This document shows positions 667 to 49,826 of a stretch of DNA of 64,000 bases, piece after piece. The notes below the pieces were generated by a model, which did not search any database, was not told the DNA's origin, and was given only the letters and a program-made list of their open reading frames with translations. Position numbers and translations under genes: made by a program. The stretch is taken from the IMG/VR virus record IMGVR_UViG_2919367315_000003, positions 94,134 to 158,133 of that record; one strand, written 5' to 3'. Position 1 is the first letter of the stretch, and each line of letters opens with the position of its first letter. The DNA is from a virus. Its lineage: Duplodnaviria; Heunggongvirae; Uroviricota; Caudoviricetes.

Positions 667-1308
667 ATGGAAACGGCTAAATACATAATATTTTCAATGT
701 TGGATGGTATGGCAATTTTTATTTTTGGATTTGGTATGTATTCTATAAAGCTAAGAGACTACTGGGTTCAATTTATCGTTTCAAGTCTGTGTATTTCTGT
801 AGGTACCCTCTTGTATGTGGAATACGACCTTCCGACTAGAGTTGCACCGATTGCCAATTTATTATTATTGATAATATTTCTCGTGATTTTATTTAAACTA
901 TCTCCCCTTTCATCATTGAGGATATCGGGAATAAGTTTTTTAGTGCAGATGATTTTACAAACTTTAACTGCGCTTATACTTGCAAGTACACTTAATATTG
1001 ATTTTTTTGAAACAACAAAAGAATATGGAATACTGATTCAATTCTTGGGTGACACAGTAATGGTCATCATAAGTTTGATATTAAGGAAACGATCTATCTT
1101 CTTTACAACATTACCATATCAATATACATTAAAATTCAAAATTAACACCTCGAATATAATACTTTTTATTGTGTCTCTGCTCGGTATAGCTTTAATGACA
1201 AAGCCTACTTTCAACAATATGACTTCAAGTGTAGTTTTCTGGATAGCAATATTCGTATTATTGATTCTAATAGAAAGAAGAAAGGAAATTAAAAATGAAT
1301 ATGATTGA
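667..1308 (+). CDS. polytopic membrane protein (about 6 TM), AgrC-sensor-domain-like, no histidine kinase domain
   Basis: ORF track 610..1308; start moved to ATG 667 behind GAGGG RBS because 610 overlaps promoter; hydrophobic helices throughout; first gene of agr-like cassette. Confidence 0.5.
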   Translation: METAKYIIFSMLDGMAIFIFGFGMYSIKLRDYWVQFIVSSLCISVGTLLYVEYDLPTRVAPIANLLLLIIFLVILFKLSPLSSLRISGISFLVQMILQTLTALILASTLNIDFFETTKEYGILIQFLGDTVMVIISLILRKRSIFFTTLPYQYTLKFKINTSNIILFIVSLLGIALMTKPTFNNMTSSVVFWIAIFVLLILIERRKEIKNEYD

Positions 1309-1831
1309 TCAAATAGCCGATAAGTGGAGTTGTGCAGCTAAAAGTAAATATCCTGATGAATTACCGTCACAACAAATAGTGAGATATACATTAAAATTTA
1401 TAATCTCGAATACCATTCCCATATTTATAGTATTAATTGCATCGATGCTATTAGGCATTACTAAAGAAACAGTATTTGCATTAATAGGGTTTTCATCACT
1501 TAGAATGTTTTCAGGTGGTTTTCACTTTAAATCGGCAGATATGTGCATAGTTTTTTCATCGCTAGTAATAATTTTAATAGCATTGGGAGGCAATTATTTC
1601 GAGAATTACTCTTTTGCTATGTATCTAGCCAGTGTAATATTGGTAATGATATATGCACCAAGTAAGATAGAACAGCAAACAAGAGTGAAACCGGAAAAAT
1701 TTAAATGGTTTAAAATTATATCCTTAATAATAGTTTCGCTGATATATATAATAAATATTCCAGTAATGAATTTAGCTGTTTTAGTACAAAGTCTCCTCTT
1801 GATACGCTTGAGAGGAGGTGAAAAGTTATGA
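1295..1831 (+). CDS. agrB: AgrB-family accessory gene regulator protein B (AIP-processing membrane endopeptidase)
   Basis: 178 aa, multi-TM, conserved R-x-x-SGGxH motif (LRMFSGGFHFKS) typical of AgrB; ATGA overlap with downstream agrD-like ORF. Confidence 0.6.
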   Translation: MNMIDQIADKWSCAAKSKYPDELPSQQIVRYTLKFIISNTIPIFIVLIASMLLGITKETVFALIGFSSLRMFSGGFHFKSADMCIVFSSLVIILIALGGNYFENYSFAMYLASVILVMIYAPSKIEQQTRVKPEKFKWFKIISLIIVSLIYIINIPVMNLAVLVQSLLLIRLRGGEKL

Positions 1832-3217: not shown

Positions 3218-3294
3218 GGGTCTTTCGTATAAGTGGTTAATACACCAATCTCATAAATTGGCTGATGCCCGTTCAAGTCGGGTGAGACCCACCA
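3218..3294 (+). tRNA. tRNA with CAU anticodon (Met, or Ile2 if lysidinylated), 3' CCA encoded
   Basis: manual cloverleaf: acceptor GGGTCTT/GAGACCC 7 bp, D-arm GTAT/ATAC with AGTGGTTA loop, anticodon stem CCAAT/ATTGG with loop CTCATAA, 5-nt variable loop, T-arm GCCCG-TTCAAGT-CGGGT, discriminator A, CCA. Confidence 0.75.
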
Positions 3295-6582: not shown

Positions 6583-6862
6583 TCAGGAACGGCGAATTGA
6601 AAATATTTGCAACGAAGTAGAGTCGCTTTTAAAGAAAAAGAACCATGATTACGGGAACTCCTTTAGTATTCAGTTCGAGAAATACGGGATTCTTAGTGCT
6701 TTGATCCGTATGGACGATAAAATGCGAAGGCTGGAAAATTTGTTGAATGGCAATAAAGCTCAAGTCGAAGAATCAATTGAAGATACTCTTCAAGACTTAG
6801 TTGGCTATGGAACACTAGCTCTTGTAGAATTACGAAAACAGAAAGAGGGATTGAATGGCTAA
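6551..6862 (+). CDS. hypothetical protein (probable start ATG 6566)
   Basis: ORF track. Confidence 0.4.
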   Translation: MSGERMNIENNQERRIENICNEVESLLKKKNHDYGNSFSIQFEKYGILSALIRMDDKMRRLENLLNGNKAQVEESIEDTLQDLVGYGTLALVELRKQKEGLNG

Positions 6863-7391
6863 GAAAGTTTTAGCTGTTGATCAGGATAATGTTATTGCCG
6901 ACCTGCTCAGTGAGTGGGTACGGCGTTACAATCTTGACTACAACGATGAATTGCGACCAGAACAAATTAATGCTTGGAATTGGCATCATCTATGTAAAGA
7001 GGAATGTGGGAATCAAATTTATAAATATCTTGATGAACCCGATTTCTTCTATAGCCTACCCGTAATTGAGGGATGCCAAGAAGTGTTAAAAGAACTGAAC
7101 TACAATTATGACATTTACATTGTGACAGCTCCATTCAACTTGAATAATGTCGTACCTAAACATAAATGGCTGGTAAAGCACTTTCCCTTTTTAGATGAAA
7201 ATAAGTTTGTGTTCACTAGAGATAAATCCATCATAGCAGCTAACTATTTAATTGATGATAAACCCAAAAATCTAGAAAATTTTCAAGGGAATAAAATTCT
7301 GTATACTGCCCCACACAATCTTGAAGAAAATCGGTTTTATCGAGTGAACAACTGGAATGAAGTAAGAGAAATATTGTTGGATTGGAAGTGA
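6855..7391 (+). CDS. 5'(3')-deoxyribonucleotidase, HAD superfamily (YorS-like)
   Basis: N-terminal LAVDQDNVIAD (DxD motif), length 178 aa. Confidence 0.65.
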   Translation: MAKKVLAVDQDNVIADLLSEWVRRYNLDYNDELRPEQINAWNWHHLCKEECGNQIYKYLDEPDFFYSLPVIEGCQEVLKELNYNYDIYIVTAPFNLNNVVPKHKWLVKHFPFLDENKFVFTRDKSIIAANYLIDDKPKNLENFQGNKILYTAPHNLEENRFYRVNNWNEVREILLDWK

Positions 7392-11115: not shown

Positions 11116-11826
11116 ATGAATCTATTTAGAAAAGTGCTGAAGTATTTTAAACGCATAGAAATTATCGATGAAGATACTATGCATAGTAATAGAATTGAGT
11201 CTGTGGAAAGTGAACTAGAACGACAATACAATATTTTTGAACTTCTACTTCCAAAAGAATTTATTTTAGATTTTAGAAACAAATCATACATATCTGGTGG
11301 ATGCATTTATAGTTTATACCATGGGGATGAACCCAAAGATTTTGACTTCTTTTTATCGTCTAAAGAATTAGCAGAAAAACTCAAAACGTACTTTATGGAT
11401 CAAGCAGGATATAATGGCTCAGATATCAGTGGTGGAACTTATAAAGGATTGCCATTAGTAATTACTAAAAACGCTATCTCAATCGGCAAGTTTCAAATCA
11501 TTACTCAATGGATCGGTGAGCCAGAAGATGTTGTTGGGGAGTTTGATTTCAAGCACAATCAATTCTATTACCGAAATGGAGCTATCGATGTTGCAGTGTT
11601 GAGTGATTGGTCTTATCTCAAGGGAAATAAGCTTTCATATAATGAACATCGAGCAAGGGATATTGTCGGTACGATTCTTAGAACACCTAAATTCATTGGA
11701 CGTGGAATGACGATCACTCAACGGGAAATGGCAAAGGTGCTATTGAGATTAAATGAGGTTGGATTTAGTGATAAAGAGGTTGAACAGTTAGAGAGTATTG
11801 ATGTAGATAGACATTTTAGCTCATAG
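11116..11826 (+). CDS. nucleotidyltransferase-fold protein (Pol-beta superfamily signature GG-x12-DFD)
   Basis: ISGGCIYSLYHGDEPKDFDFFL fits G[SG]x9-13Dx[DE]; AAAGGAAG RBS. Confidence 0.4.
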   Translation: MNLFRKVLKYFKRIEIIDEDTMHSNRIESVESELERQYNIFELLLPKEFILDFRNKSYISGGCIYSLYHGDEPKDFDFFLSSKELAEKLKTYFMDQAGYNGSDISGGTYKGLPLVITKNAISIGKFQIITQWIGEPEDVVGEFDFKHNQFYYRNGAIDVAVLSDWSYLKGNKLSYNEHRARDIVGTILRTPKFIGRGMTITQREMAKVLLRLNEVGFSDKEVEQLESIDVDRHFSS

Positions 11827-12349: not shown

Positions 12350-13243
12350 ATGTCAAAAGAAAAAAATATTGGAGCCGATCTGCACGAAATGTTGTTAAAA
12401 AGTAAGGAGCAAAGAGATAAAAATAGCAACCAAGAGCATGTGCTTGAAAAAGTGAAACGGCTATCCCTCTTACCTGATGACATTAATGCAACTATTGAGA
12501 TGGTAGCTAATTATTTTGAAGTAGACAAGGAAGCAATACATAGCTGCATAAAAGATAATCGCAAGGAATTGAGGTCAGATGGATTAAAAATACTTCGTGG
12601 AAAAGAATTAAGAGAATTTGTGATGTCCTTTAAGGACATGGCAAATTATGTAAATAGTAAAACAAGATCACTGACTATTGTCCCAAGAAGAGCCATGTTA
12701 AGAATGGGACAACTTCTCAGAGATTCAGTGATTGCAATAGAAATTCGAAATTATTTATTAGACGTAGAACAGGAAAGTCATGATGTTTCTCTCTTTTTAA
12801 CTGAATTAGATCGCAATGAGGAGAGAGATTCAACTAGACAGGGGAATAGTGAAATCAAACTTATTCTTAAGAATAAAGTTGGTGCAAGCAGTCCCAAACA
12901 TTATTCTGCTTTTTTTCTAAAAGGATATGAGGGTAGCTACAATGTTAGTAGCATAAAAGAATACAATGCACTTAAAGGTCTGCATGAAAACGCAAAGCCA
13001 TTGGATCACATGGATTCTTTGGAGCTTGCAACATACAGATTTAGAGTAGAGATGACTAAAGAGAGAATTGAAAGCGGCGATATTAGTGAATTACCAGTAG
13101 CAAATGAAATACATAAAAATATAGGAAAAAATGTGGCTGACTTAGTTGAAAGTGTCACAGGTAAGACTTTAGCTTCATTACCAATAATAAATCCCACCAA
13201 AAAACTTAAGAATTCTAATGACGACCATGATGAAGTTCGATAA
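12350..13243 (+). CDS. hypothetical protein (possible antirepressor/DNA-binding regulator-like)
   Basis: ORF track; AAAGGAGAG RBS. Confidence 0.45.
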   Translation: MSKEKNIGADLHEMLLKSKEQRDKNSNQEHVLEKVKRLSLLPDDINATIEMVANYFEVDKEAIHSCIKDNRKELRSDGLKILRGKELREFVMSFKDMANYVNSKTRSLTIVPRRAMLRMGQLLRDSVIAIEIRNYLLDVEQESHDVSLFLTELDRNEERDSTRQGNSEIKLILKNKVGASSPKHYSAFFLKGYEGSYNVSSIKEYNALKGLHENAKPLDHMDSLELATYRFRVEMTKERIESGDISELPVANEIHKNIGKNVADLVESVTGKTLASLPIINPTKKLKNSNDDHDEVR

Positions 13244-13611: not shown

Positions 13612-14511
13612 TTGACCTTAGACGAACTTGAAGTACTTGATGGCAAAGTATCAGATGAAGCGCAGAAAGTAATCGATGAAGCTAAAAAAGAGTGCTCATA
13701 TGGATTTGAAATGCCCATAATGAATGAAATTATTAAGACATCCGAAAAAACTGGTACATTAAAATGGACGCATAAATCAATTAGATCGTGTAACTACTGT
13801 AATAAAAATTATGATTACCATACATATTCAAGGAACAGCAGAAACCATACAAAAGGCGACAAAAATTATGATAAGCCTATCTATTATAGTGGTATAAAGT
13901 TTAATGAAGGGTTTGTAACATTTCAAGGTGATGGTGATATGTGTTTAGAATGCTGCACGAAACACAAAGTAAAGGAACGATTGATTGACTATATTATAGA
14001 TAATGATTTGAAAATACAGATTGTGAAGAATGATTATAGAGTCAGTAAATATTTAAAAGACGACATTAGAACTTGCTACAGTTGCAATGAGGATATGCTA
14101 GAATCTCAAATGGGTAAAGAGCGAACAATGATGGGTGATGGATTCTATCCGTCTAAATGTCCTCATTGTGGTGCTGAATCAAAGCCTTTTGGCAAAAGTC
14201 ATGGAGTAACAAATAGATTTGGAATGATTAAAAACCCTTCAGCTAAAGAAGAAGTTCAAAAAACAAAAGAGTTGGTTGATGCATATAACCAAAACAAAGA
14301 CAAAAATGATCATCTCTATTTTTACCAAAACAGCCATACAGACAGTATATTTGGTGTCAATGAAGAAAAATGGACGAATGGATACACGAAAGTTATTCAA
14401 TTTAACATCAATTCTAAAAAGTTCACGGTAGGATATTTTTATAAAGAGAAGTGTCAGCAATTTAAAGAATTGTTAACTAGTTTTGGCTACATAGAAGTAG
14501 AAGATAAGTAA
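13612..14511 (+). CDS. Cys-rich protein with four CxxC pairs (zinc-ribbon containing)
   Basis: CNYC, CLECC, CYSC, CPHC motifs. Confidence 0.45.
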   Translation: MTLDELEVLDGKVSDEAQKVIDEAKKECSYGFEMPIMNEIIKTSEKTGTLKWTHKSIRSCNYCNKNYDYHTYSRNSRNHTKGDKNYDKPIYYSGIKFNEGFVTFQGDGDMCLECCTKHKVKERLIDYIIDNDLKIQIVKNDYRVSKYLKDDIRTCYSCNEDMLESQMGKERTMMGDGFYPSKCPHCGAESKPFGKSHGVTNRFGMIKNPSAKEEVQKTKELVDAYNQNKDKNDHLYFYQNSHTDSIFGVNEEKWTNGYTKVIQFNINSKKFTVGYFYKEKCQQFKELLTSFGYIEVEDK

Positions 14512-14557
14512 GTAAAACATAGATTTTACCATAATACATACAAAAGGATGATAAAGT

Positions 14558-15070
14558 ATGAGTAAGTTATATGAGCTTGGGGAGCAGTATAGAGTATTTA
14601 ACAATTTTGTAGATTCTGCGTGGGACAATGACGATTTAACGGAAGATGATTTGCAACTGTACATTGAGACACTAGAGTCTATTGAAGATGAGATTAGTAA
14701 TAAGGCAGAGAATATCGCTAAGTTCATGAAAAACATCGAGGGAGATATCAAAGCCTTAAAAGAAGAAGAGGATCGTTTGGCTAAAAAACGCAAATACCTT
14801 CAGAACAAAGTAGAAGGATTAAAGAGCTACACTCAAGCTGTGCTAGAAGTAAATAAAATTGACAAGATAGACGCAGGTCTATTTAAAGTTAGACTACAAA
14901 AGAATCCTCCATCCATTAATATTGTGAGTGAAAAAGCTATTCCAAATACATATAGAGTCCCACAACCCGATAAGATTGATACCAAGGGGTTATTGGCTGC
15001 CGTAAAACAGGGTGAAGTTGTTGACGGTGTTGAATTAGTGACGGACAAAAAACATTTGCGTATTAGTTAG
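14558..15070 (+). CDS. Sipho_Gp157-like protein
   Basis: N-terminal MSKLYELGEQY..L..TLESIEDEI...AENIAKFMKNIE...LKEEEDRLAKKRK pattern typical of the Gp157 family. Confidence 0.45.
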   Translation: MSKLYELGEQYRVFNNFVDSAWDNDDLTEDDLQLYIETLESIEDEISNKAENIAKFMKNIEGDIKALKEEEDRLAKKRKYLQNKVEGLKSYTQAVLEVNKIDKIDAGLFKVRLQKNPPSINIVSEKAIPNTYRVPQPDKIDTKGLLAAVKQGEVVDGVELVTDKKHLRIS

Positions 15071-15074
15071 TGCA

Positions 15075-15104
15075 AAGCCTCCTATTTTGGAGGTTTTTTA
15101 TTTT
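15075..15104 (+). terminator. rho-independent terminator AAGCCTCC-tatttt-GGAGGTTT + T-run
   Basis: sequence inspection. Confidence 0.65.
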
Positions 15105-15229
15105 AATAAACAAAAATAATGAAATCTATTGATAAACGATGAGGCGGATGCTATAATTGATTTATGGAAAAATACATACTTTAAAAGAGTTCTTTTATTA
15201 AGATTACATAGATTGGAGAGCAATGAAAA

Positions 15230-15430
15230 ATGAAATTTATTATTGTTGGTGATATTGGCGTAACTAAGGTTTGTGAAATAGTTGATGCTGAATCTGTTGT
15301 AATGCGAGTTCAACAAGTGAAGAATGCTAAATTTGGAAACTTTAAAGTTTATCGAATTGCCGAAGAAGTAGATATAACAGTTGCTTACCCCGATTATTTT
15401 GGTGGAGACGATACTGGTGGATGTAGATAA
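15230..15430 (+). CDS. hypothetical protein
   Basis: ORF track. Confidence 0.3.
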   Translation: MKFIIVGDIGVTKVCEIVDAESVVMRVQQVKNAKFGNFKVYRIAEEVDITVAYPDYFGGDDTGGCR

Positions 15431-15458
15431 AAGGTCTGTTTTATCTGGAGGAATGTTA

Positions 15459-15686
15459 GTGGAACTATCAGAGATAAAAGATAGAATGAAAAAGTGTTGT
15501 GTTGAGGAATTAATAAATACATACAATTTAGACAGTGAAGTAGCTAAAAATATTCTGAATAACTCATCATGGAATGAACTTGTTGACGAAAGTGATTGCG
15601 AAGAATTGAGATGGATCGGTCATTACCCTTTCGAATATTGGGCTAAATATGTATGGAATGAACACAGGGAGGTAATCAATGATTAA
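15459..15686 (+). CDS. hypothetical protein (GTG start behind GGAGG; track ORF 15381..15686)
   Basis: RBS spacing. Confidence 0.3.
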   Translation: MELSEIKDRMKKCCVEELINTYNLDSEVAKNILNNSSWNELVDESDCEELRWIGHYPFEYWAKYVWNEHREVIND

Positions 15687-16128
15687 AATCGTCGAAGGAA
15701 ATTTGCTTGATGCAACTGAAGATATTATTGGACACCAAACGAACACTAAAGGTGTATGGGGATCAGGAGTTGCTAAAGCAATAAAAGATAAATATCCAAG
15801 TACATACCCTGCTTACCGCGATCTTTGTCATGAGTACGGAGATAAGTTGCTTGGTAGCTGTTGGACAATTAAAGCGAATGAAAATAAGTTTATAGCTAAT
15901 TTGTTTGGTCAAACAAACTATGGGAGAGACAAGAATAAGGTATATACATATTATGACGCTTTGAAGTTAAGTTTGGAAATCTTAAAAACCAGAGCTGAGA
16001 GATTCGGATATTCGGTGGCTTTACCATACAATATTGGCTGCGGATTAGCTAATGGAGACTGGGATATTGTATATGAGATTATTGATACAGTGTTTAGTGA
16101 TTATAAAGTAACACTCTACAGAATGTGA
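15679..16128 (+). CDS. macro-domain protein (ADP-ribose binding / O-acetyl-ADP-ribose deacetylase-like)
   Basis: IVEGNLLDATEDIIGHQTNTKGVWGSGVAKAI matches macro N-terminal G-D-I-t...ai.N.aN..l..G.GVa.AI signature. Confidence 0.55.
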   Translation: MIKIVEGNLLDATEDIIGHQTNTKGVWGSGVAKAIKDKYPSTYPAYRDLCHEYGDKLLGSCWTIKANENKFIANLFGQTNYGRDKNKVYTYYDALKLSLEILKTRAERFGYSVALPYNIGCGLANGDWDIVYEIIDTVFSDYKVTLYRM

Positions 16129-16140
16129 GGAGAATGTAAA

Positions 16141-16329
16141 TTGAAGATTATTTGTGAGGATAATTTTGGTAGGGAAAGTGTTAGTGATTCTCTAGTATGT
16201 GGAAATGTAAGTCAATACTATGGTGTAGCTTTTGTTAAATTTTTGAATGAAAATTTTTCAGGAGATCATAGTTTCAATTTTTACAGGCTCGTAGAAGATG
16301 AATATGAGCTTTATAAATGGGAGCCGTAA
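16141..16329 (+). CDS. hypothetical protein
   Basis: ORF track (TTG start, GAGGAG RBS). Confidence 0.3.
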   Translation: MKIICEDNFGRESVSDSLVCGNVSQYYGVAFVKFLNENFSGDHSFNFYRLVEDEYELYKWEP

Positions 16330-16332
16330 AAT

Positions 16333-16518
16333 ATGCCATATATAAAAAAAGACGACTTTAAGCAGTTGTGTCATTACTTCTTCGTACAAGGATGTAATGC
16401 TGGTTATGGAATAGATGTCTCAGAAACTTTGTGGAAACAGGAAGAAGAGGCGTTTAGGTCGATATATGAAGATTATTTACTGAATTTTGACTCCAAGAAG
16501 GAGGAAATTGATGTATAA
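16333..16518 (+). CDS. hypothetical protein
   Basis: ORF track. Confidence 0.3.
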   Translation: MPYIKKDDFKQLCHYFFVQGCNAGYGIDVSETLWKQEEEAFRSIYEDYLLNFDSKKEEIDV

Positions 16519-16756
16519 GAAGTATTGGAACGAAGATGGTAAACGATACATGATAAAAATTGATGAAGTCAGAGTTAATACGAGTAGAGAAAATGGGATG
16601 ACTTACTACAAACTTGTTCAAAAACTAAAAATATTTCAAAAAAAGAAATACTTCTTGGGTTGGAAGTGTATTTATTTAAATCAATGGGACGAAGAAATTG
16701 GTGTAAATTTAATTAAAAGAATACGTGAGAGCACTAACGATTGTTTTGGTAAATAA
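16511..16756 (+). CDS. hypothetical protein (ATG 16511 behind AAGGAGG)
   Basis: track ORF 16487..16756 trimmed to RBS-supported start. Confidence 0.35.
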   Translation: MYKKYWNEDGKRYMIKIDEVRVNTSRENGMTYYKLVQKLKIFQKKKYFLGWKCIYLNQWDEEIGVNLIKRIRESTNDCFGK

Positions 16757-16771
16757 AGGAGAGAAAATTTT

Positions 16772-17137
16772 ATGACTATAAGTGTGCCAATTGAAATTAT
16801 TAAAAACAATAAAACTCAAGAATTTGTTGAGTTGCAATTAGTACATGAACGTTTAGACAATGAATTGAAAAGATGCGCTATTAAGCTGGAAGAATTATAT
16901 ATCGAACTTAAAAGGATAATAAGTCCAACTGATCGTTACGGTCATTCATATACTTACAATTATGAGTACTTTAAAAAACGTCAAGCGTGGAGAGAGGCGT
17001 TGGTTATGCAAGATGCGATTAATGAAGTGGTGAACGTCGAAGGAGAAATTCAAGAAGTAAACGCAGCATACATAGAAGTTAGGGAGAAACTTAGAGTTAT
17101 TTATAGAAAATGTGGTATGACAGATGTGGTTATTTAA
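16772..17137 (+). CDS. hypothetical coiled-coil protein
   Basis: ORF track; AAGGAGAG RBS. Confidence 0.45.
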   Translation: MTISVPIEIIKNNKTQEFVELQLVHERLDNELKRCAIKLEELYIELKRIISPTDRYGHSYTYNYEYFKKRQAWREALVMQDAINEVVNVEGEIQEVNAAYIEVREKLRVIYRKCGMTDVVI

Positions 17138-17217
17138 AGTCTAATAAAATGCGTGTTTTATGTACTTTTTGGTCTTGAAAAAAGAAGTGAATATAAGAAA
17201 ATCAAAGAATGAAGGAG

Positions 17218-17424
17218 ATGGAAATGAATATAGATTGTGAGTATTGCAGCGGCAAACCTTTGGTAAATAGAAAGCCCCTAATGAGCAATGGTAAAGGCGA
17301 TTATACGGTATTTATCAATAGTTGCAATCATTTAGAAGATAGTGAAATCGGAAACTGGAATGCTAAGTTCTCGTTGTTCGGAATTAAGATAAATTACTGT
17401 CCTGTGTGCGGAAGAGCATTCTAA
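17218..17424 (+). CDS. small zinc-ribbon protein (CEYC ... CPVC)
   Basis: track ORF 17209..17424; GAAGGAG RBS. Confidence 0.35.
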   Translation: MEMNIDCEYCSGKPLVNRKPLMSNGKGDYTVFINSCNHLEDSEIGNWNAKFSLFGIKINYCPVCGRAF

Positions 17425-17459
17425 CAATTGTAAAATACATATTTTAGGAGGGGTATTAA

Positions 17460-17783
17460 GTGGAACTCTTTAAACAGGAGTGGGTTACTGTTAAGCCCAT
17501 TAAAGCTTTAGGGGTCAAATACTTAAATAAAGTTCCATATAAAAAGGCAATAAAAATGGTGGACGAAGGATCTGCTGTGATTGCCAATCCGTATACAATT
17601 TATAAACTGTTCGATAGAAGAAGTTTACGAAGATACGTAAGGAAGATTGACAAAAATACTTGCGTTTACTGTGGCAATAAAGGTGAAAGCACAGATTATA
17701 TAGTGCCTCCTTCTGATGGTGGGATAAGAAGCCCGAAAAATATGTGTTGCGTCTGTATGAGTTGCAAAAAGTCCACCACTTAG
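17460..17783 (+). CDS. HNH-endonuclease-like protein, variant motif (D-Y instead of D-H)
   Basis: CVYCGNKGESTDYIVPPSDGG...N..C..C pattern; GTG start with GGAGGGG RBS. Confidence 0.45.
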   Translation: MELFKQEWVTVKPIKALGVKYLNKVPYKKAIKMVDEGSAVIANPYTIYKLFDRRSLRRYVRKIDKNTCVYCGNKGESTDYIVPPSDGGIRSPKNMCCVCMSCKKSTT

Positions 17784-17846
17784 TTTCAATTGTAGTAAAT
17801 CTAGATTAGAATAGTATGAACTACAACAAGAAATGAGTGAGAGCGT

Positions 17847-18650
17847 ATGGTTGAGAACGTAACTAGAGATATAATTACCACTTATCAAGAAGTTCTGAAT
17901 GGGAAAATAAAGAGATTTCCTGATGGTACTTGGAGTGATGATAAGACAGGGGTTTACTTTTATAAAAGATGCTTAAGATTTGCAGTTGAATGCATATATG
18001 GTTGGGATAAAGAAATGACATTAGAAAAAATAACGGCAAAATGGTTTGGTAAGGTTAAGTTAGCAACAGGATTTGGGAAGTACTTTGAGAGAAGTCCATA
18101 TCTTGCTTTAAAAGAAACATTTCCTGAGTGGAACTTTCATCCTTGGGAAATGAAAACATCTCCAAATGGATGTTGGGATAATGAAACAATTAAAAAAGCG
18201 GTCAGATGGGTATTCAACGATAAGTTAAAATGGGGAAGATCTGAAATCACAAATAACATTAGCAAGGATTTTAATGAATATGGGTTCAAAAAAATGTACG
18301 CCGCATTTCATCAAGGTGCGTATGGAGAATTAATAGATAGAGATTCTTCGGGTTTATATGAATTACTTAGTTATTGCTTCGAGGAATATGATTTCAAGAT
18401 TTGGGAGTTTAAAAAATTACCTACATGGACTGAATCAGATATGAAAGAGAGTTTCAAATGGCTGATTGAAGAACGTCTAAATTGGGATTATGAACAAACA
18501 TTAGATAACCTCAAATATACACATTTTAGAGAGTCAGGTTTAGGGAACATTTTAGCAAATTATTTCAACAGTAGCCCATATAAAGCAATGAGATTTACTT
18601 ATCCAGATAAAGACTGGTCAAAATTAAGGCATCGTGCTGAACTTGAATAG
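17847..18650 (+). CDS. hypothetical protein with internal duplication (two W-x-E-TL...F...G....YF..SPY.A....P repeats)
   Basis: ORF track; repeat seen by eye. Confidence 0.5.
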   Translation: MVENVTRDIITTYQEVLNGKIKRFPDGTWSDDKTGVYFYKRCLRFAVECIYGWDKEMTLEKITAKWFGKVKLATGFGKYFERSPYLALKETFPEWNFHPWEMKTSPNGCWDNETIKKAVRWVFNDKLKWGRSEITNNISKDFNEYGFKKMYAAFHQGAYGELIDRDSSGLYELLSYCFEEYDFKIWEFKKLPTWTESDMKESFKWLIEERLNWDYEQTLDNLKYTHFRESGLGNILANYFNSSPYKAMRFTYPDKDWSKLRHRAELE

Positions 18651-37066: not shown

Positions 37067-37210
37067 ATGCCGTTAATTGGTGGGATTATTATCCTTACGA
37101 TTCTGTTGTTTATATTGTGGCTTTTTCTTAATCCAATTTTCAATGCAGTTGGATCAAAGGTAAATAAAATCAAAAAACTATTTAAAAATCAGGAGGAAGA
37201 AAATGAATAA
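37067..37210 (+). CDS. small single-TM membrane protein (47 aa)
   Basis: track 37022..37210 trimmed to ATG behind AAAAGGAAG; precedes SPFH gene with ATGA overlap. Confidence 0.3.
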   Translation: MPLIGGIIILTILLFILWLFLNPIFNAVGSKVNKIKKLFKNQEEENE

Positions 37211-38045
37211 CTTTAAAATCGGTGCGTTTGTTACAGGTGGTATTATTTTGTTTGGGGCTATTTTAACTCCTTTTTTTGTTACTACAATCGGTGCTGGTCA
37301 TGCTGGTGTAGTCTATAACCGAAATGGTGGTTTAGAGCAACAAACATTGGGTCAAGGTTGGCATTTAGTTTCGCCATTTAAACGTGTAACTGAATATCCA
37401 ATTGCAACTGAAACTGTTAAATATGAAGATGTGACTATTGGCACAAAAGATGGCAAGCCAATTAAAACTACTTTTCAATACAACTACCATATTGAACCGA
37501 CTAAGCTGCCTGATATTTTCAATAAATTTAGAGGGGCTAATTCCGAAGTGATTGAAAATGGATTCTTAAAGTCTCGACTAACTGAAATGGCAAAAGAAGT
37601 AACTACTAAATATACGGTTCTTGAAATTCTAGGTGAGAAAAGCTCTGAAGTATCACTAGGAATTCAAGAGAAATTCGCAGAGGATGCTAAAGGAATTGGG
37701 TTTATTGTTGAGGCAGTTACCTTCACACCACCAGTACCAGATGAGCAGACACAAAAAGCAATTCAGGCTAAAGTAGATGCTCAACAAAAACTCGAACAAG
37801 AAAAAGTAGAGCTAGAAAAAGCTAAAGTTGTCGCTCAAAAACAACGTGAAGAAGCTAAAGGTAAAGCCGACTCAGTGCTGATTGAAGCTGAAGGACAGGC
37901 AAAAGCTAACCAAGTTATTCGCCAATCATTAACTAATGAACTGGTTCAATATGAAACAGTGAAAAAGTGGAACGGGACTTTGCCTCAAGTAAGTGGATCT
38001 AATACGCCAATTGTACAGTTACCCACAGCAAACACAAATAAATAG
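37203..38045 (+). CDS. SPFH/band-7 (stomatin/prohibitin-like) membrane protein
   Basis: N-terminal TM, SPFH core, C-terminal coiled coil rich in A/Q/K/E. Confidence 0.7.
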   Translation: MNNFKIGAFVTGGIILFGAILTPFFVTTIGAGHAGVVYNRNGGLEQQTLGQGWHLVSPFKRVTEYPIATETVKYEDVTIGTKDGKPIKTTFQYNYHIEPTKLPDIFNKFRGANSEVIENGFLKSRLTEMAKEVTTKYTVLEILGEKSSEVSLGIQEKFAEDAKGIGFIVEAVTFTPPVPDEQTQKAIQAKVDAQQKLEQEKVELEKAKVVAQKQREEAKGKADSVLIEAEGQAKANQVIRQSLTNELVQYETVKKWNGTLPQVSGSNTPIVQLPTANTNK

Positions 38046-48208: not shown

Positions 48209-49081
48209 ATGACAGTTCAAAATAACAAGCAAGTAAAACAACCATTTTATGCAATCAACGACCAAGTTTATATCAAGCCACTCAAGGTAAAAGGCGTTGT
48301 TAAAGGACATCTAGATGGCTTGACTGTAGTTACATATTTCATTAAAAATAAAAGACGTACAAATAAGTTTGATATTTCTTTGTTACGTCAATATAAAGAG
48401 AAGATTAAAAGCAATAATAAGTTGGCAACCCTTTACCCTAGAGAGTTTGTACTGAGCAAAAAGGAAGTAGAAAATTTTTCTGAAATTCTAAATCTAGACC
48501 TAACTTCCAAAAGAATGATTGGGAATCTGGAGATAACACCCACTAATAAGTTTAGAGTGGAATATCACGACTACAATCCATACTCCGACTTCTTCAAGGT
48601 GCGTAAATTCCAAAAGGTATTTAATTGCCCTGCTCCAGATGTGCCAACTGTACTGTCAGATAAATTGGCAATCAACCGCGCCTCTTTTATTCTTGAGGAG
48701 GTAATTGAACTTTTGTATACTACTGCTGGAAGCAAAGAGAGATTCGATAAGTTTTTTGCTGAATTAATCTTGAATGCCGAAGAAACATACAAAAAACAGC
48801 TCACTAAGCCTTTCCCTGAAGACCGTCTAATTGGGCAAATTGACGCTCTTACTGATATTAAGTATTTTGCTGAAGGTGGATTTGTTGAGACTTCTGTTGT
48901 TCCAGACAGAATTTTTGATTTAGTACATCAGGCAAATATGTCCAAAATTTTCCCTGATGGGGAACCACACTATGATAAAGTGGGTAAAGTAATCAAGCCT
49001 GAAGGATGGGAAGCTCCTGAACCTAAAATTGAAGAAGAAGTAAAACGACAAATTAAACTTGGTGCTAAACGATTCATTTAG
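48209..49081 (+). CDS. hypothetical protein; C-terminal half weakly resembles all-alpha NTP pyrophosphohydrolase (MazG/HisE-like) helices
   Basis: ORF track; EEVIELLY / DALTDIKYFAEG segments; weak. Confidence 0.4.
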   Translation: MTVQNNKQVKQPFYAINDQVYIKPLKVKGVVKGHLDGLTVVTYFIKNKRRTNKFDISLLRQYKEKIKSNNKLATLYPREFVLSKKEVENFSEILNLDLTSKRMIGNLEITPTNKFRVEYHDYNPYSDFFKVRKFQKVFNCPAPDVPTVLSDKLAINRASFILEEVIELLYTTAGSKERFDKFFAELILNAEETYKKQLTKPFPEDRLIGQIDALTDIKYFAEGGFVETSVVPDRIFDLVHQANMSKIFPDGEPHYDKVGKVIKPEGWEAPEPKIEEEVKRQIKLGAKRFI

Positions 49082-49142
49082 TATAATCTTGGGCGGTGGT
49101 AAATCCACTGCCTTTAAAATTGATCAAAAGGAGAATTTAAAT

Positions 49143-49826
49143 ATGAACAAAATTGATGTGCTAGATAAAGGTTATGTACGATTAGTGGATGTAATGGGTT
49201 CGGATCTTACAGTGGCTAACGCTGCTCGTGTATCCTATGCAAAAGAGTCAAAAGAACTAACTGAAAAGGATATTAAGCTAATTAAATTTCTAGCGCGGGA
49301 AGATCATACCAGCCCTTTTAGACATGCATTTCTTCAGTTTGAAGTATATGCACCACTTATGGTAGCTCGACAATGGTGGAAATATATTGTTGGCTCTGAC
49401 CATACGATGGACGCTTGGAATGAATCTAGTCGACGTTACATCACTGAAGAGCCAAACTTTCATGTACCAGCATTTAATGAGTGGCGTTCTAAACCTGAAA
49501 ACTCGAAACAAGGCAGCGGAGATATTGTTAAATTTGAGCTTGGTGAAGAAGCTACATATCGACTCTTTAAAACTATTGAAGATGCAGAAAGTAATTATGA
49601 GTGGGCTATTGAGAAAGGAATTTGTGCAGAACAAGCAAGACTATTTCTCCCGGCCTATGGTATGTATGTACGTTGGTATTGGTCTACATCACTTCAAGGA
49701 GTTTGCCATTTCCTAAATCAGAGACTTGAACATGATGCTCAAAAGGAGATTCAACAATACGCAAAAGCAGTCATTGAATTGGCTAAAGAAAGGTTTCCTG
49801 TCAGCATTGATGAATTAAATAAATAA
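49143..49826 (+). CDS. thyX: flavin-dependent thymidylate synthase
   Basis: track 49059..49826 trimmed to ATG 49143 behind AAAAGGAGAA; ThyX motifs FRHA...S and ESSRRY. Confidence 0.7.
   Translation: MNKIDVLDKGYVRLVDVMGSDLTVANAARVSYAKESKELTEKDIKLIKFLAREDHTSPFRHAFLQFEVYAPLMVARQWWKYIVGSDHTMDAWNESSRRYITEEPNFHVPAFNEWRSKPENSKQGSGDIVKFELGEEATYRLFKTIEDAESNYEWAIEKGICAEQARLFLPAYGMYVRWYWSTSLQGVCHFLNQRLEHDAQKEIQQYAKAVIELAKERFPVSIDELNK

What the first reader, a model, noticed from the sequence alone, without database searches (positions are those of the whole stretch)
15679..16128. Compact macro-domain protein: candidate ADP-ribosylation eraser or anti-defence factor
The N-terminus shows a clear macro signature. 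At 149 aa it is shorter than typical macro domains. Phage macro domains can reverse host ADP-ribosylation (DarT-like, or NAD-derived defence signalling) or process ADP-ribose derivatives.
Basis: partly seen in the sequence, partly recalled or inferred. Interest (0 to 1): 0.55.

Follow-up and report, generated by a model that had tools for sequence, protein, structure and literature searches.

The report
Phage stand-alone macrodomain, likely anti-DarT
This is a real, intact phage gene for a small enzyme that removes ADP-ribose tags. It belongs to a common phage family whose characterised members undo the DNA tagging done by the bacterial DarTG defence, so it is a sound but ordinary annotation.

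Summary

It belongs to the TARG1/DarG/Poa1p ("ALC1-like") class, in the glutamine subtype. Gln78 is invariant and sits where DarG has Lys80 and TARG1 has Lys84. Asn22 is also invariant. Streptomyces SCO6735 has the same arrangement (Asn27/Gln85) and has been shown to cleave thymidine-linked ADP-ribose from DarT-modified ssDNA.

The protein falls in PHROG 335 with T4 Tk.4 and PhiKZ gp104. Both have been named AdfM, anti-DarT2 factors. T4 Tk.4 is also the glutamine type.

The gene lies in an early-looking, mosaic region that carries anti-Gabija cassettes in relatives.

Most likely function: an orphan DarG-like DNA ADP-ribosylglycohydrolase that protects replicating phage DNA. The enzyme class is well supported. 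The physiological target is inferred, and I did not find DarT in Paenibacillus, the apparent host genus.

The 149-aa length is normal for this class. Verdict: a new member of a known kind, of low to moderate interest.

The parts
15679..16128 (+). Coding sequence of the 149-aa stand-alone macrodomain protein (glutamine-type ALC1-like class; AdfM/Tk.4-like)
15667..15672 (+). Shine-Dalgarno sequence GGGAGG, 6 nt before the ATG
   Evidence: Read directly from the sequence.
15742..15744 (+). Codon for Asn22. It is invariant in the family and equivalent to DarG N22 and SCO6735 N27.
   Evidence: Alignments. N27S inactivates SCO6735 (PMC9411070).
15751..15768 (+). Glycine-rich loop 1 (G25-V-W-G28-S-G30), which binds the phosphates of ADP-ribose
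   Evidence: G28 and G30 are invariant across the reference set and the family.
15910..15912 (+). Codon for Gln78. It is invariant and occupies the position of DarG Lys80, TARG1 Lys84 and SCO6735 Gln85.
   Evidence: Alignments. Q85A abolishes SCO6735 activity.
15913..15948 (+). Extended loop after Gln78 (T79-T90, containing R83, K85 and K87). Its length matches the long 'mobile loop' of SCO6735 and BT1257. The loop is about 5-6 residues shorter in DarG, TARG1 and T4 Tk.4.
   Evidence: Alignment. Role of the loop in DNA handling from PMC9411070.
16036..16056 (+). Glycine-rich loop 2 (G120-C-G-L-A124-N-G126). Ala124 sits where TARG1 has the catalytic Asp125.
   Evidence: Alignments.
15129..15157 (+). 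Best sigma-70-like promoter of the region: TTGATA, 17-nt spacer, TG-extended TATAAT, 11 of 12 matches. It probably drives the small operon that contains the macro gene.
   Evidence: It lies in the intergenic gap directly after a terminator-like hairpin. The total number of promoter-like sites in the region is not above the shuffled expectation, so this is a positional inference.
15074..15097 (+). Terminator-like hairpin with a T-run after the Gp157 gene. It marks the upstream boundary of the transcription unit.
15230..15686 (+). Two small ORFs of unknown function upstream in the same putative operon: a 66-aa ORF at 15230-15430, and an ORF ending at 15686 whose stop overlaps the macro start by 8 nt
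   Evidence: No family hit for the ORF ending at 15686 (15381-15683 scanned). The 66-aa ORF was not scanned, but its DNA is conserved in the relative L002.

Best explanation
The gene encodes a catalytically competent, single-domain macrodomain ADP-ribosylhydrolase. It belongs to the TARG1/DarG/Poa1p ("ALC1-like") class, in the glutamine subtype typified by Streptomyces SCO6735 and Bacteroides BT1257.

Proposed role: it is made early in infection from a host-type promoter. It acts as an orphan, DarG-like "antitoxin" (AdfM-type anti-DarT factor). It binds the ADP-ribose that a host DarT2-type toxin attaches to N3 of thymidine in single-stranded phage DNA, cleaves the base-ribose bond, releases free ADP-ribose and restores normal thymidine. 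Phage replication and transcription can then continue.

Proposed chemistry, by analogy with SCO6735: Asn22 holds Gln78 in the rotamer that contacts the distal ribose, the two glycine-rich loops clamp the diphosphate, and an ordered water starts the hydrolysis. No covalent lysine intermediate forms.

Shown here: the ORF, the fold, the class, the active-site residues, the family membership and the genomic setting.
Inferred: the enzymatic activity, the substrate and the defence system that is countered.
For: 2. Active site. N22 and Q78 are invariant in 55 family members. They align with SCO6735 N27 and Q85.
3. Biochemistry of the glutamine type. SCO6735 removes thymidine-linked ADP-ribose from DarT-modified ssDNA and rescues cells from DarT. 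Q85A and N27S inactivate it (PMC9411070). It also cleaves uracil-ADPr (PMC13036486). The results of PMC11833690 report it inactive on guanosine-, 5'-phosphate- and 2'-OH-linked ADPr.
4. Phage precedents in the same PHROG 335: the query scores 2.8e-43, T4 Tk.4 1.3e-65 and PhiKZ gp104 8.2e-43. PhiKZ gp104 (AdfM) removes DarT2 marks from DNA (PMC13309987). Deleting T4 tk.4 (AdfM) sensitises T4 to DarTG2 (preprint 10.1101/2025.11.20.689424). T4 Tk.4 is also the glutamine type, as are 10 of 10 sampled phage homologues of the query.
5. Defence-system models. The only PADLOC model matched is DarG, and the query scores higher (60 bits) than T4 AdfM (36 bits).
6. Setting. The gene follows a terminator and a strong sigma-70-like promoter. 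The region is mosaic. Relatives carry Gad1 (E = 6e-117) and a Gad2-annotated gene a few kb upstream, or a homologue of the window's Gad2-like gene directly downstream.
7. Target availability. The window encodes ThyX and ribonucleotide reductases, so the phage DNA should contain thymine.
8. DarT2 in related hosts. DarT-DarG operons exist in Bacillales: on a B. thuringiensis plasmid and in Geobacillus, Anoxybacillus, Cytobacillus and Sporosarcina. Geobacillus is the host genus of virus E3, whose gp183 is 52% identical to the query.
Against: - No assay exists for this protein or for any homologue from a Bacillales phage.
- The canonical catalytic lysine of DarG and TARG1 is absent.
- The evidence for the glutamine-type phage enzyme (T4 Tk.4) is genetic only and comes from a preprint.
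- Two SCO6735 DNA-handling features are missing. Lys34 corresponds to Ser29, and the overall charge is neutral (pI 6.7 against 9.8).
- No DarT from Paenibacillus, the apparent host genus, appeared among the best 120 proteins or the best 80 genomic loci. Both lists were truncated.
- In other phages, family members sit next to NAMPT, NAD synthetase, a sirtuin or RNA ligase 2. This suggests roles in NAD/ADP-ribose metabolism or RNA repair for at least part of the family.
Confidence: 0.55

Rival explanations
1. It reverses a different macromolecular ADP-ribosylation. Candidates are uracil-linked ADP-ribose on RNA, or glutamate/aspartate-linked ADP-ribose on proteins. The modification would be made by a host ADP-ribosyltransferase defence or toxin other than DarT2, or by a phage-encoded transferase.
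For: SCO6735, the closest characterised active-site match, also hydrolyses protein-linked ADPr and uracil-ADPr on RNA. No DarT was seen in Paenibacillus in the truncated lists. In Streptomyces phage Patelgo the homologue abuts a sirtuin-like gene, a known writer/eraser pairing.
Against: No ADP-ribosyltransferase or sirtuin was found among the roughly 40 window proteins scanned. The two phage family members with experimental data both counter DarT2. The results of PMC11833690 report SCO6735 inactive on guanosine-, 5'-phosphate- and 2'-OH-linked nucleic-acid ADPr.
Confidence: 0.2
2. It processes a small ADP-ribose derivative (ADP-ribose-1''-phosphate, O-acetyl-ADP-ribose or a similar compound). 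This would be part of phage NAD+/ADP-ribose housekeeping or RNA-repair clean-up, as in yeast Poa1p. This is the basis of the database label "phosphatase / Appr-1-p processing".
Against: Poa1p Ser30 and Phe152, both chosen for mutagenesis in the PDB entries, correspond to Val26 and Ala124 here. The family profile scores SCO6735, BT1257 and DarG above Poa1p. The scanned part of the window contains no NAD-salvage, Tpt1/KptA or RNA-ligase gene. The "phosphatase" label is inherited annotation, not a test.
Confidence: 0.15
3. It is a non-catalytic ADP-ribose binder. It would act as a sponge for NAD-derived immune signals (Thoeris-type gcADPR or His-ADPR), or inhibit an ADP-ribosyltransferase by binding it.
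For: Macro domains can act purely as readers. Catalytically dead SCO6735 still inhibits DarT by interaction.
Confidence: 0.05

Closest known systems
T4 Tk.4 (AdfM, anti-DarT factor macrodomain; preprint 10.1101/2025.11.20.689424)
   Same: Stand-alone phage macrodomain of about 150 aa. Same PHROG 335. Same glutamine-type active site: H-x-x-N and ...Q (LYTQ in T4, LFGQ here). DarG is the only PADLOC match.
   Different: Only 24% identical. T4 has the short loop after the Gln, while the query has the long SCO6735-like loop. The host phylum differs. The T4 protein has genetic evidence; this one has none.
PhiKZ gp104 (AdfM; Cell Rep 2026, PMC13309987)
   Same: Phage-encoded single macrodomain in PHROG 335. 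The Asn is conserved. It has been shown to remove DarT2 ADP-ribose from DNA.
   Different: PhiKZ gp104 is the lysine type (FPTK, K78), like true DarG. It is 23% identical to the query. It is imported into a phage nucleus, and nothing suggests a phage nucleus here.
Streptomyces coelicolor SCO6735 (PDB 5E3B) and Bacteroides BT1257 (PDB 2FG1/2AFC)
   Different: They are cellular proteins, not phage proteins. SCO6735 is strongly basic (pI 9.8 against 6.7) and uses Lys34, which is Ser29 here. About 29-31% identity.
DarG antitoxin of DarTG2 (PDB 5M3I/5M31; NCBIfam NF048014)
   Different: No catalytic Lys80. No C-terminal DarT-binding domain (149 aa against about 340; 48.9 bits against a cut-off of 250). 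No adjacent DarT gene.
Human TARG1/OARD1 and yeast Poa1p
   Same: Same fold class and similar size. The His before the Asn position is shared.
   Different: The TARG1 Lys84/Asp125 dyad is replaced by Gln78/Ala124. Poa1p Ser30 and Phe152 correspond to Val26 and Ala124.

Membership tests
Macro domain superfamily (Pfam PF01661) | Profile match above the curated threshold | tested here: met
   33.6 bits against a gathering score of 22, E = 4.2e-8, residues 21-135.
Macro domain superfamily (Pfam PF01661) | Three-layer alpha/beta/alpha macro fold | tested here: met
Macro domain superfamily (Pfam PF01661) | Two glycine-rich ADP-ribose/diphosphate-binding loops | tested here: met
   GVWGSG (25-30) and GCGLANG (120-126). 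G28, G30, G120, G122 and G126 are conserved.
ALC1-like (TARG1/DarG/Poa1p/SCO6735) macro class | Nearest structural and sequence neighbours all lie in this class and are separated from the MacroD, PARG and viral classes | tested here: met
Glutamine-type subclass (SCO6735/BT1257-like) | Gln at the catalytic-lysine position, held by a conserved Asn (SCO6735 Q85/N27) | tested here: met
   Q78 and N22 are invariant in 55 homologues and align with Q85 and N27.
Glutamine-type subclass (SCO6735/BT1257-like) | Extended, positively charged mobile loop after the Gln | tested here: met
   The loop is within one or two residues of the SCO6735/BT1257 loop length and 5-6 residues longer than in DarG or TARG1. 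It contains R83, K85 and K87.
Glutamine-type subclass (SCO6735/BT1257-like) | DNA-positioning Lys34 and a strongly electropositive surface | tested here: not met
   Lys34 aligns with Ser29. pI is 6.7 against 9.8 for the SCO6735 fragment.
Glutamine-type subclass (SCO6735/BT1257-like) | Hydrolysis of thymidine-linked ADP-ribose on ssDNA | not testable with these tools
   Needs an enzyme assay.
DarG antitoxin (DarTG2) | Catalytic lysine (Lys80) in an FPTK motif | tested here: not met
   LFGQ in place of FPTK.
DarG antitoxin (DarTG2) | C-terminal DarT-binding domain, and a full-length match above the NCBIfam cut-off | tested here: not met
   149 aa. Only model positions 1-146 of 338 match. 48.9 bits against a cut-off of 250. 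For comparison, the B. thuringiensis DarG is 341 aa.
DarG antitoxin (DarTG2) | Operon with a DarT (DUF4433/PF14487) toxin gene | tested here: not met
   None of the scanned neighbours matches DarT or any ADP-ribosyltransferase. All flanking genes are phage genes.
AdfM (phage anti-DarT2 macrodomain) | Stand-alone macrodomain encoded by a phage and homologous to T4 Tk.4 and PhiKZ gp104 | tested here: met
   All three fall in PHROG 335. Pairwise BLASTP gives E = 9e-9 and 8e-8. The window is a large virulent-type phage replication region.
AdfM (phage anti-DarT2 macrodomain) | Protects the phage from DarTG2 and removes DarT2 marks from DNA | not testable with these tools
   Needs phage genetics and biochemistry.
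AdfM (phage anti-DarT2 macrodomain) | The host lineage carries DarT2 | tested here: inconclusive
   DarT was found in Bacillus, Geobacillus, Anoxybacillus, Cytobacillus and Sporosarcina. No Paenibacillus entry appeared in the truncated top lists.
Poa1p-type ADP-ribose-1''-phosphate phosphatase | Residues probed in the Poa1p structures (His23, Ser30, Phe152) | tested here: inconclusive
   His19 matches His23, but Ser30 corresponds to Val26 and Phe152 to Ala124. The Poa1p paper is not in the library, so the roles of these residues could not be checked.
TARG1 | Lys84/Asp125 catalytic dyad | tested here: not met
   Gln78 and Ala124 occupy these positions.

The most novel reading that the evidence does not exclude
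The glutamine-type macrodomain of these Paenibacillus/Bacillales phages may not be aimed at DarT2. Its target could instead be the product of an undescribed ADP-ribosylating defence of Paenibacillus, for example base-linked ADP-ribose on RNA or a new DNA adduct. In that reading the gene marks a hot-swappable anti-defence island. The unannotated cassettes around it (12350-13243, which replaces Gad1 of a close relative; 13612-14511; 15230-15686; 16141-17137) would then be new anti-defence genes.
Probability: 0.15. Interest if true: 0.55.

Novelty: new member of a known kind. Interest (0 to 1): 0.25.

Why it matters
If the inference holds, AdfM-type counter-defence extends from Gram-negative model phages (T4, PhiKZ) to large phages of Paenibacillus and Bacillales. 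It would also add a data point that most phage macrodomains use the lysine-free, glutamine-based active site, which so far has been dissected only in SCO6735. In practice it gives a testable annotation for a gene usually labelled "phosphatase" or "macro domain-containing protein". It also flags the surrounding mosaic region as a place to look for further anti-defence genes. It does not reveal a new kind of system.

Tried and rejected
- Megablast of 14000-18000 against 50,697 phage records found no match. The phage is new at the DNA level, and the closest DNA is a Paenibacillus-associated contig or a 177-kb IMG/VR contig.
- I first assumed the window's 297-aa gene (12350-13243) was Gad1, because the relative L002 has Gad1 at that position. 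Rejected: there is no similarity and no Pfam Gad1 hit, while L002's protein scores E = 6e-117.
- The Gad2 label for 11116-11826 rests only on a precomputed Pfam hit on the L002 orthologue. The local Pfam copy has no such model. The protein is 236 aa, against 400 aa for the published Gad2. I treat this as a hint only.
- A neighbourhood census of 80 viral loci found no universally conserved partner gene. The frequent neighbours are specific to particular clades.
- The search for DarT in Paenibacillus found none in the top 120 proteins or the top 80 loci. Both lists were truncated, so the result is inconclusive.
- The idea that the protein is unusually short or compact is rejected.
- The Poa1p structure paper is not in the library.
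- The coordinates of the AF2 model could not be inspected, so Asn22-Gln78 contact geometry was not measured.

Full report
**Observation.** A GGGAGG ribosome-binding site lies 6 nt upstream. The ATG overlaps the stop codon of the preceding small ORF by 8 nt. The protein matches Pfam Macro above the curated threshold (33.6 bits against 22, E = 4.2e-8). It matches PHROG 335 ("phosphatase") at E = 2.8e-43. It matches the N-terminal macro part of the NCBIfam DarG model at E = 5.6e-13, far below that model's full-length cut-off. A search of 5.8 billion proteins returned 159 full-length homologues. The closest (96%) is annotated in Paenibacillus sp. CMAA1739, and most named hits come from Paenibacillus, Brevibacillus and Bacillus. 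tblastn finds relatives in 1171 of 50,697 phage records. The best is Geobacillus virus E3 gp183, at 52% identity. The one part of it that does not hold is the "compactness". About 150 aa is the standard size for this class: TARG1 is 152 aa, T4 Tk.4 is 155 aa, and the aligned family members are of similar length.

**Active site.** In the family alignment N22, G30, A32, G59, Q78, T90, P116, W128 and Y147 are invariant. Alignments with reference proteins place Q78 at the position of the catalytic lysine of DarG (K80, FPTK) and TARG1 (K84, ITK). The TARG1 sequence used was checked against PDB 2LGR. A124 sits at the position of TARG1 D125. A defining residue of DarG and TARG1 is therefore missing. 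The same substitutions occur in SCO6735 (N27, Q85, Ala) and BT1257. For SCO6735, Hlousek-Kasun et al. showed robust hydrolysis of thymidine-linked ADP-ribose on DarT-modified ssDNA and rescue from DarT toxicity. They also showed complete loss of activity in Q85A and near-complete loss in N27S, and proposed a water-mediated, lysine-independent mechanism (PMC9411070). The query also shares the longer loop after the Gln (R83, K85, K87), which that paper links to DNA handling. It lacks the Lys34 equivalent (Ser29) and the overall basic charge (pI 6.7 against 9.8). Later work shows that SCO6735 also cleaves uracil-linked ADPr on RNA (PMC13036486). The results of PMC11833690 report it inactive on guanosine-, 5'-phosphate- and 2'-OH-linked ADPr. 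The known chemistry of the glutamine type therefore centres on pyrimidine-base-linked ADP-ribose.

**Phage precedents.** Two phage macrodomains have been named AdfM (anti-DarT factor macro). PhiKZ gp104 removes DarT2 marks from DNA and protects chimalliviruses from DarTG2 (PMC13309987). T4 tk.4 was the single hit in a transposon screen on a DarTG2 host, and its clean deletion sensitises T4 to DarTG2 (preprint 10.1101/2025.11.20.689424). I retrieved both sequences. The query and both AdfM proteins all fall in PHROG 335. All three hit only the DarG model in PADLOC, where the query scores 60 bits, T4 Tk.4 36 bits and PhiKZ gp104 133 bits. PhiKZ gp104 is the lysine type (FPTK). T4 Tk.4 is the glutamine type (LYTQ), like the query (LFGQ). 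I sampled ten homologues of the query from phages of diverse hosts (Geobacillus, Bacillus, Pseudomonas, Escherichia, Salmonella, Acinetobacter, Rheinheimera, Streptomyces). All ten have H-x-x-N and Gln. The query is thus an ordinary member of a very large phage family of glutamine-type macrodomains, one of which has genetic evidence for an anti-DarTG2 role.

**Genomic setting.** The window is a 33% GC, single-strand-coded region of a large virulent-type phage. It encodes DnaB, primase, RecJ, NrdD, NrdAB, a PolA-like polymerase, an ATP-dependent DNA ligase, ThyX and a tRNA-Met. ThyX implies thymine-containing DNA, which is the DarT2 target. There is no megablast match among sequenced phages. 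The window is 84-96% identical in mosaic blocks to a contig of Paenibacillus sp. CMAA1739, and a 177-kb IMG/VR contig carries a 96%-identical macro gene. A terminator-like hairpin (15074-15097) follows the Gp157 gene. After it comes the best sigma-70-like promoter of the region (15129-15157, 11 of 12 matches plus TG), then two small ORFs and the macro gene. This suggests early transcription by host RNA polymerase, which is an inference. Upstream lie a Sipho_Gp157 gene and a 236-aa nucleotidyltransferase-like gene, whose orthologue in the relative carries a precomputed Pfam "Gad2" label. In that relative a true Gad1 (E = 6e-117) occupies the slot where the window has an unrelated 297-aa gene. 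In other relatives Gad1 lies 3.5 kb upstream of the macro gene, or a homologue of the window's Gad2-like gene lies directly downstream. This mosaic, cassette-swapping neighbourhood is typical of anti-defence regions. Across 80 viral loci, however, no partner gene is universally conserved.

**Does the host lineage have the proposed target system?** DarG-type macro genes occur on 40 Bacillus plasmids. The one I inspected, on B. thuringiensis plasmid pHD120345, lies directly downstream of a DUF4433/DarT gene. DarT homologues are present in Bacillus, Cytobacillus, Anoxybacillus, Ectobacillus, Geobacillus, Alteribacillus and Sporosarcina. Geobacillus is the host genus of virus E3. No Paenibacillus DarT appeared, but both lists were cut at 120 and 80 entries, so this step remains open.

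**Rivals.** In other phages, family members sit beside NAMPT (Pakpunavirus), NAD synthetase (Acinetobacter ME3, and an IMG/VR clade), a sirtuin-like gene (Streptomyces Patelgo) or RNA ligase 2 (Vequintavirinae). This fits Iyer et al.'s argument that many phage macrodomains process small ADP-ribose derivatives (PMC9503650), and it fits the Poa1p-like "Appr-1-p phosphatase" label. Against this for the present gene, none of the roughly 40 window proteins scanned is an NAD-salvage, RNA-ligase, Tpt1 or ADP-ribosyltransferase gene. In addition, the Poa1p residues Ser30 and Phe152 are not conserved here. A different macromolecular substrate (protein or RNA) remains possible, because SCO6735 is active on several substrate types. 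A pure binder or sponge role is unlikely, given the invariant catalytic pair and the structural distance from the Thoeris macro sensor.

**Verdict.** The gene is not a DarG orthologue: it has no Lys80, no C-terminal domain and no adjacent DarT. It is not a TARG1 or Poa1p orthologue either. It is a glutamine-type ALC1-like macrodomain of the phage Tk.4/AdfM family. Its most probable role is to erase DarT2-type thymidine ADP-ribosylation from phage DNA (about 0.55). That it is an active ADP-ribosylhydrolase of this class is much more certain (about 0.9). It is a new member of a known kind. Interest is low to moderate.

Noticed in passing
window 11116-11826 (+): A 236-aa nucleotidyltransferase-like protein (phrog_4400 and phrog_1614). 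It is about 85% identical at the DNA level to a gene in the relative L002 that carries a precomputed Pfam PF26128 'Gad2' (anti-Gabija) label. The local Pfam copy lacks that model, and the published Gad2 is 400 aa, so this is only a hint.
   Followed up: partly
window 12350-13243 (+), compared with L002 7507-8394: The close relative has a bona fide Gad1 (Pfam E = 6e-117) at this position. The window has an unrelated 297-aa protein of unknown function (phrog_8036). This looks like cassette replacement in a possible anti-defence slot.
   Followed up: partly
window 13612-14511 (+): A 299-aa cysteine-rich protein with no family hit. It is absent from the closest relative L002 but 55% identical to a gene in IMG/VR locus L023. 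It is an inserted cassette between the Gad1 slot and Gp157.
   Followed up: partly
window 1295-1831 (+): A phage-encoded AgrB-like protein (PF04647, E = 6e-25). AgrB is the membrane protease that processes the Agr quorum-sensing peptide, so this may be phage interference with, or use of, host quorum sensing.
   Followed up: no
window 37203-38045 (+): An SPFH/Band-7 family protein (PF01145, E = 6e-29) within the phage replication region.
   Followed up: no
window 48209-49826 (+): A MazG-like pyrophosphohydrolase (PF01503) overlaps a ThyX thymidylate synthase (PF02511). With NrdD, NrdAB and NT5C (6855-7391), this makes a full dNTP-supply module and indicates thymine-containing DNA.
   Followed up: partly
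L002 (GCA_035853635.1 contig JAKNRQ010000001.1, 1,190,530-1,210,979 of 1,266,271): The 96%-identical relative lies near the end of a 1.27-Mb Paenibacillus contig, while IMG/VR lists a 177-kb viral contig (L007) that also carries a 96%-identical macro gene. It is unclear whether this large, virulent-looking phage is integrated, a carrier-state element or an assembly join.
   Followed up: no
L168, L172, L174, L169/L170 and IMG/VR loci L063-L084: In other phage lineages the homologous macro gene is adjacent to NAMPT (Pakpunavirus), NAD synthetase (Acinetobacter ME3 and a metagenomic clade), a sirtuin-like 'NAD-dependent deacetylase' with overlapping stop and start (Streptomyces Patelgo), or RNA ligase 2 (Vequintavirinae). 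The family may have lineage-specific roles in NAD/ADP-ribose metabolism.
   Followed up: partly
L171 1995-2780 (Escherichia phage REP8, Felixounavirus): In Felix-O1-like phages the macro domain is the N-terminal part of a 261-aa protein. The C-terminal extension of about 100 aa was not characterised.
   Followed up: no
window 3218-3294 (+): A single tRNA-Met (CAT) gene within the phage region.
   Followed up: no
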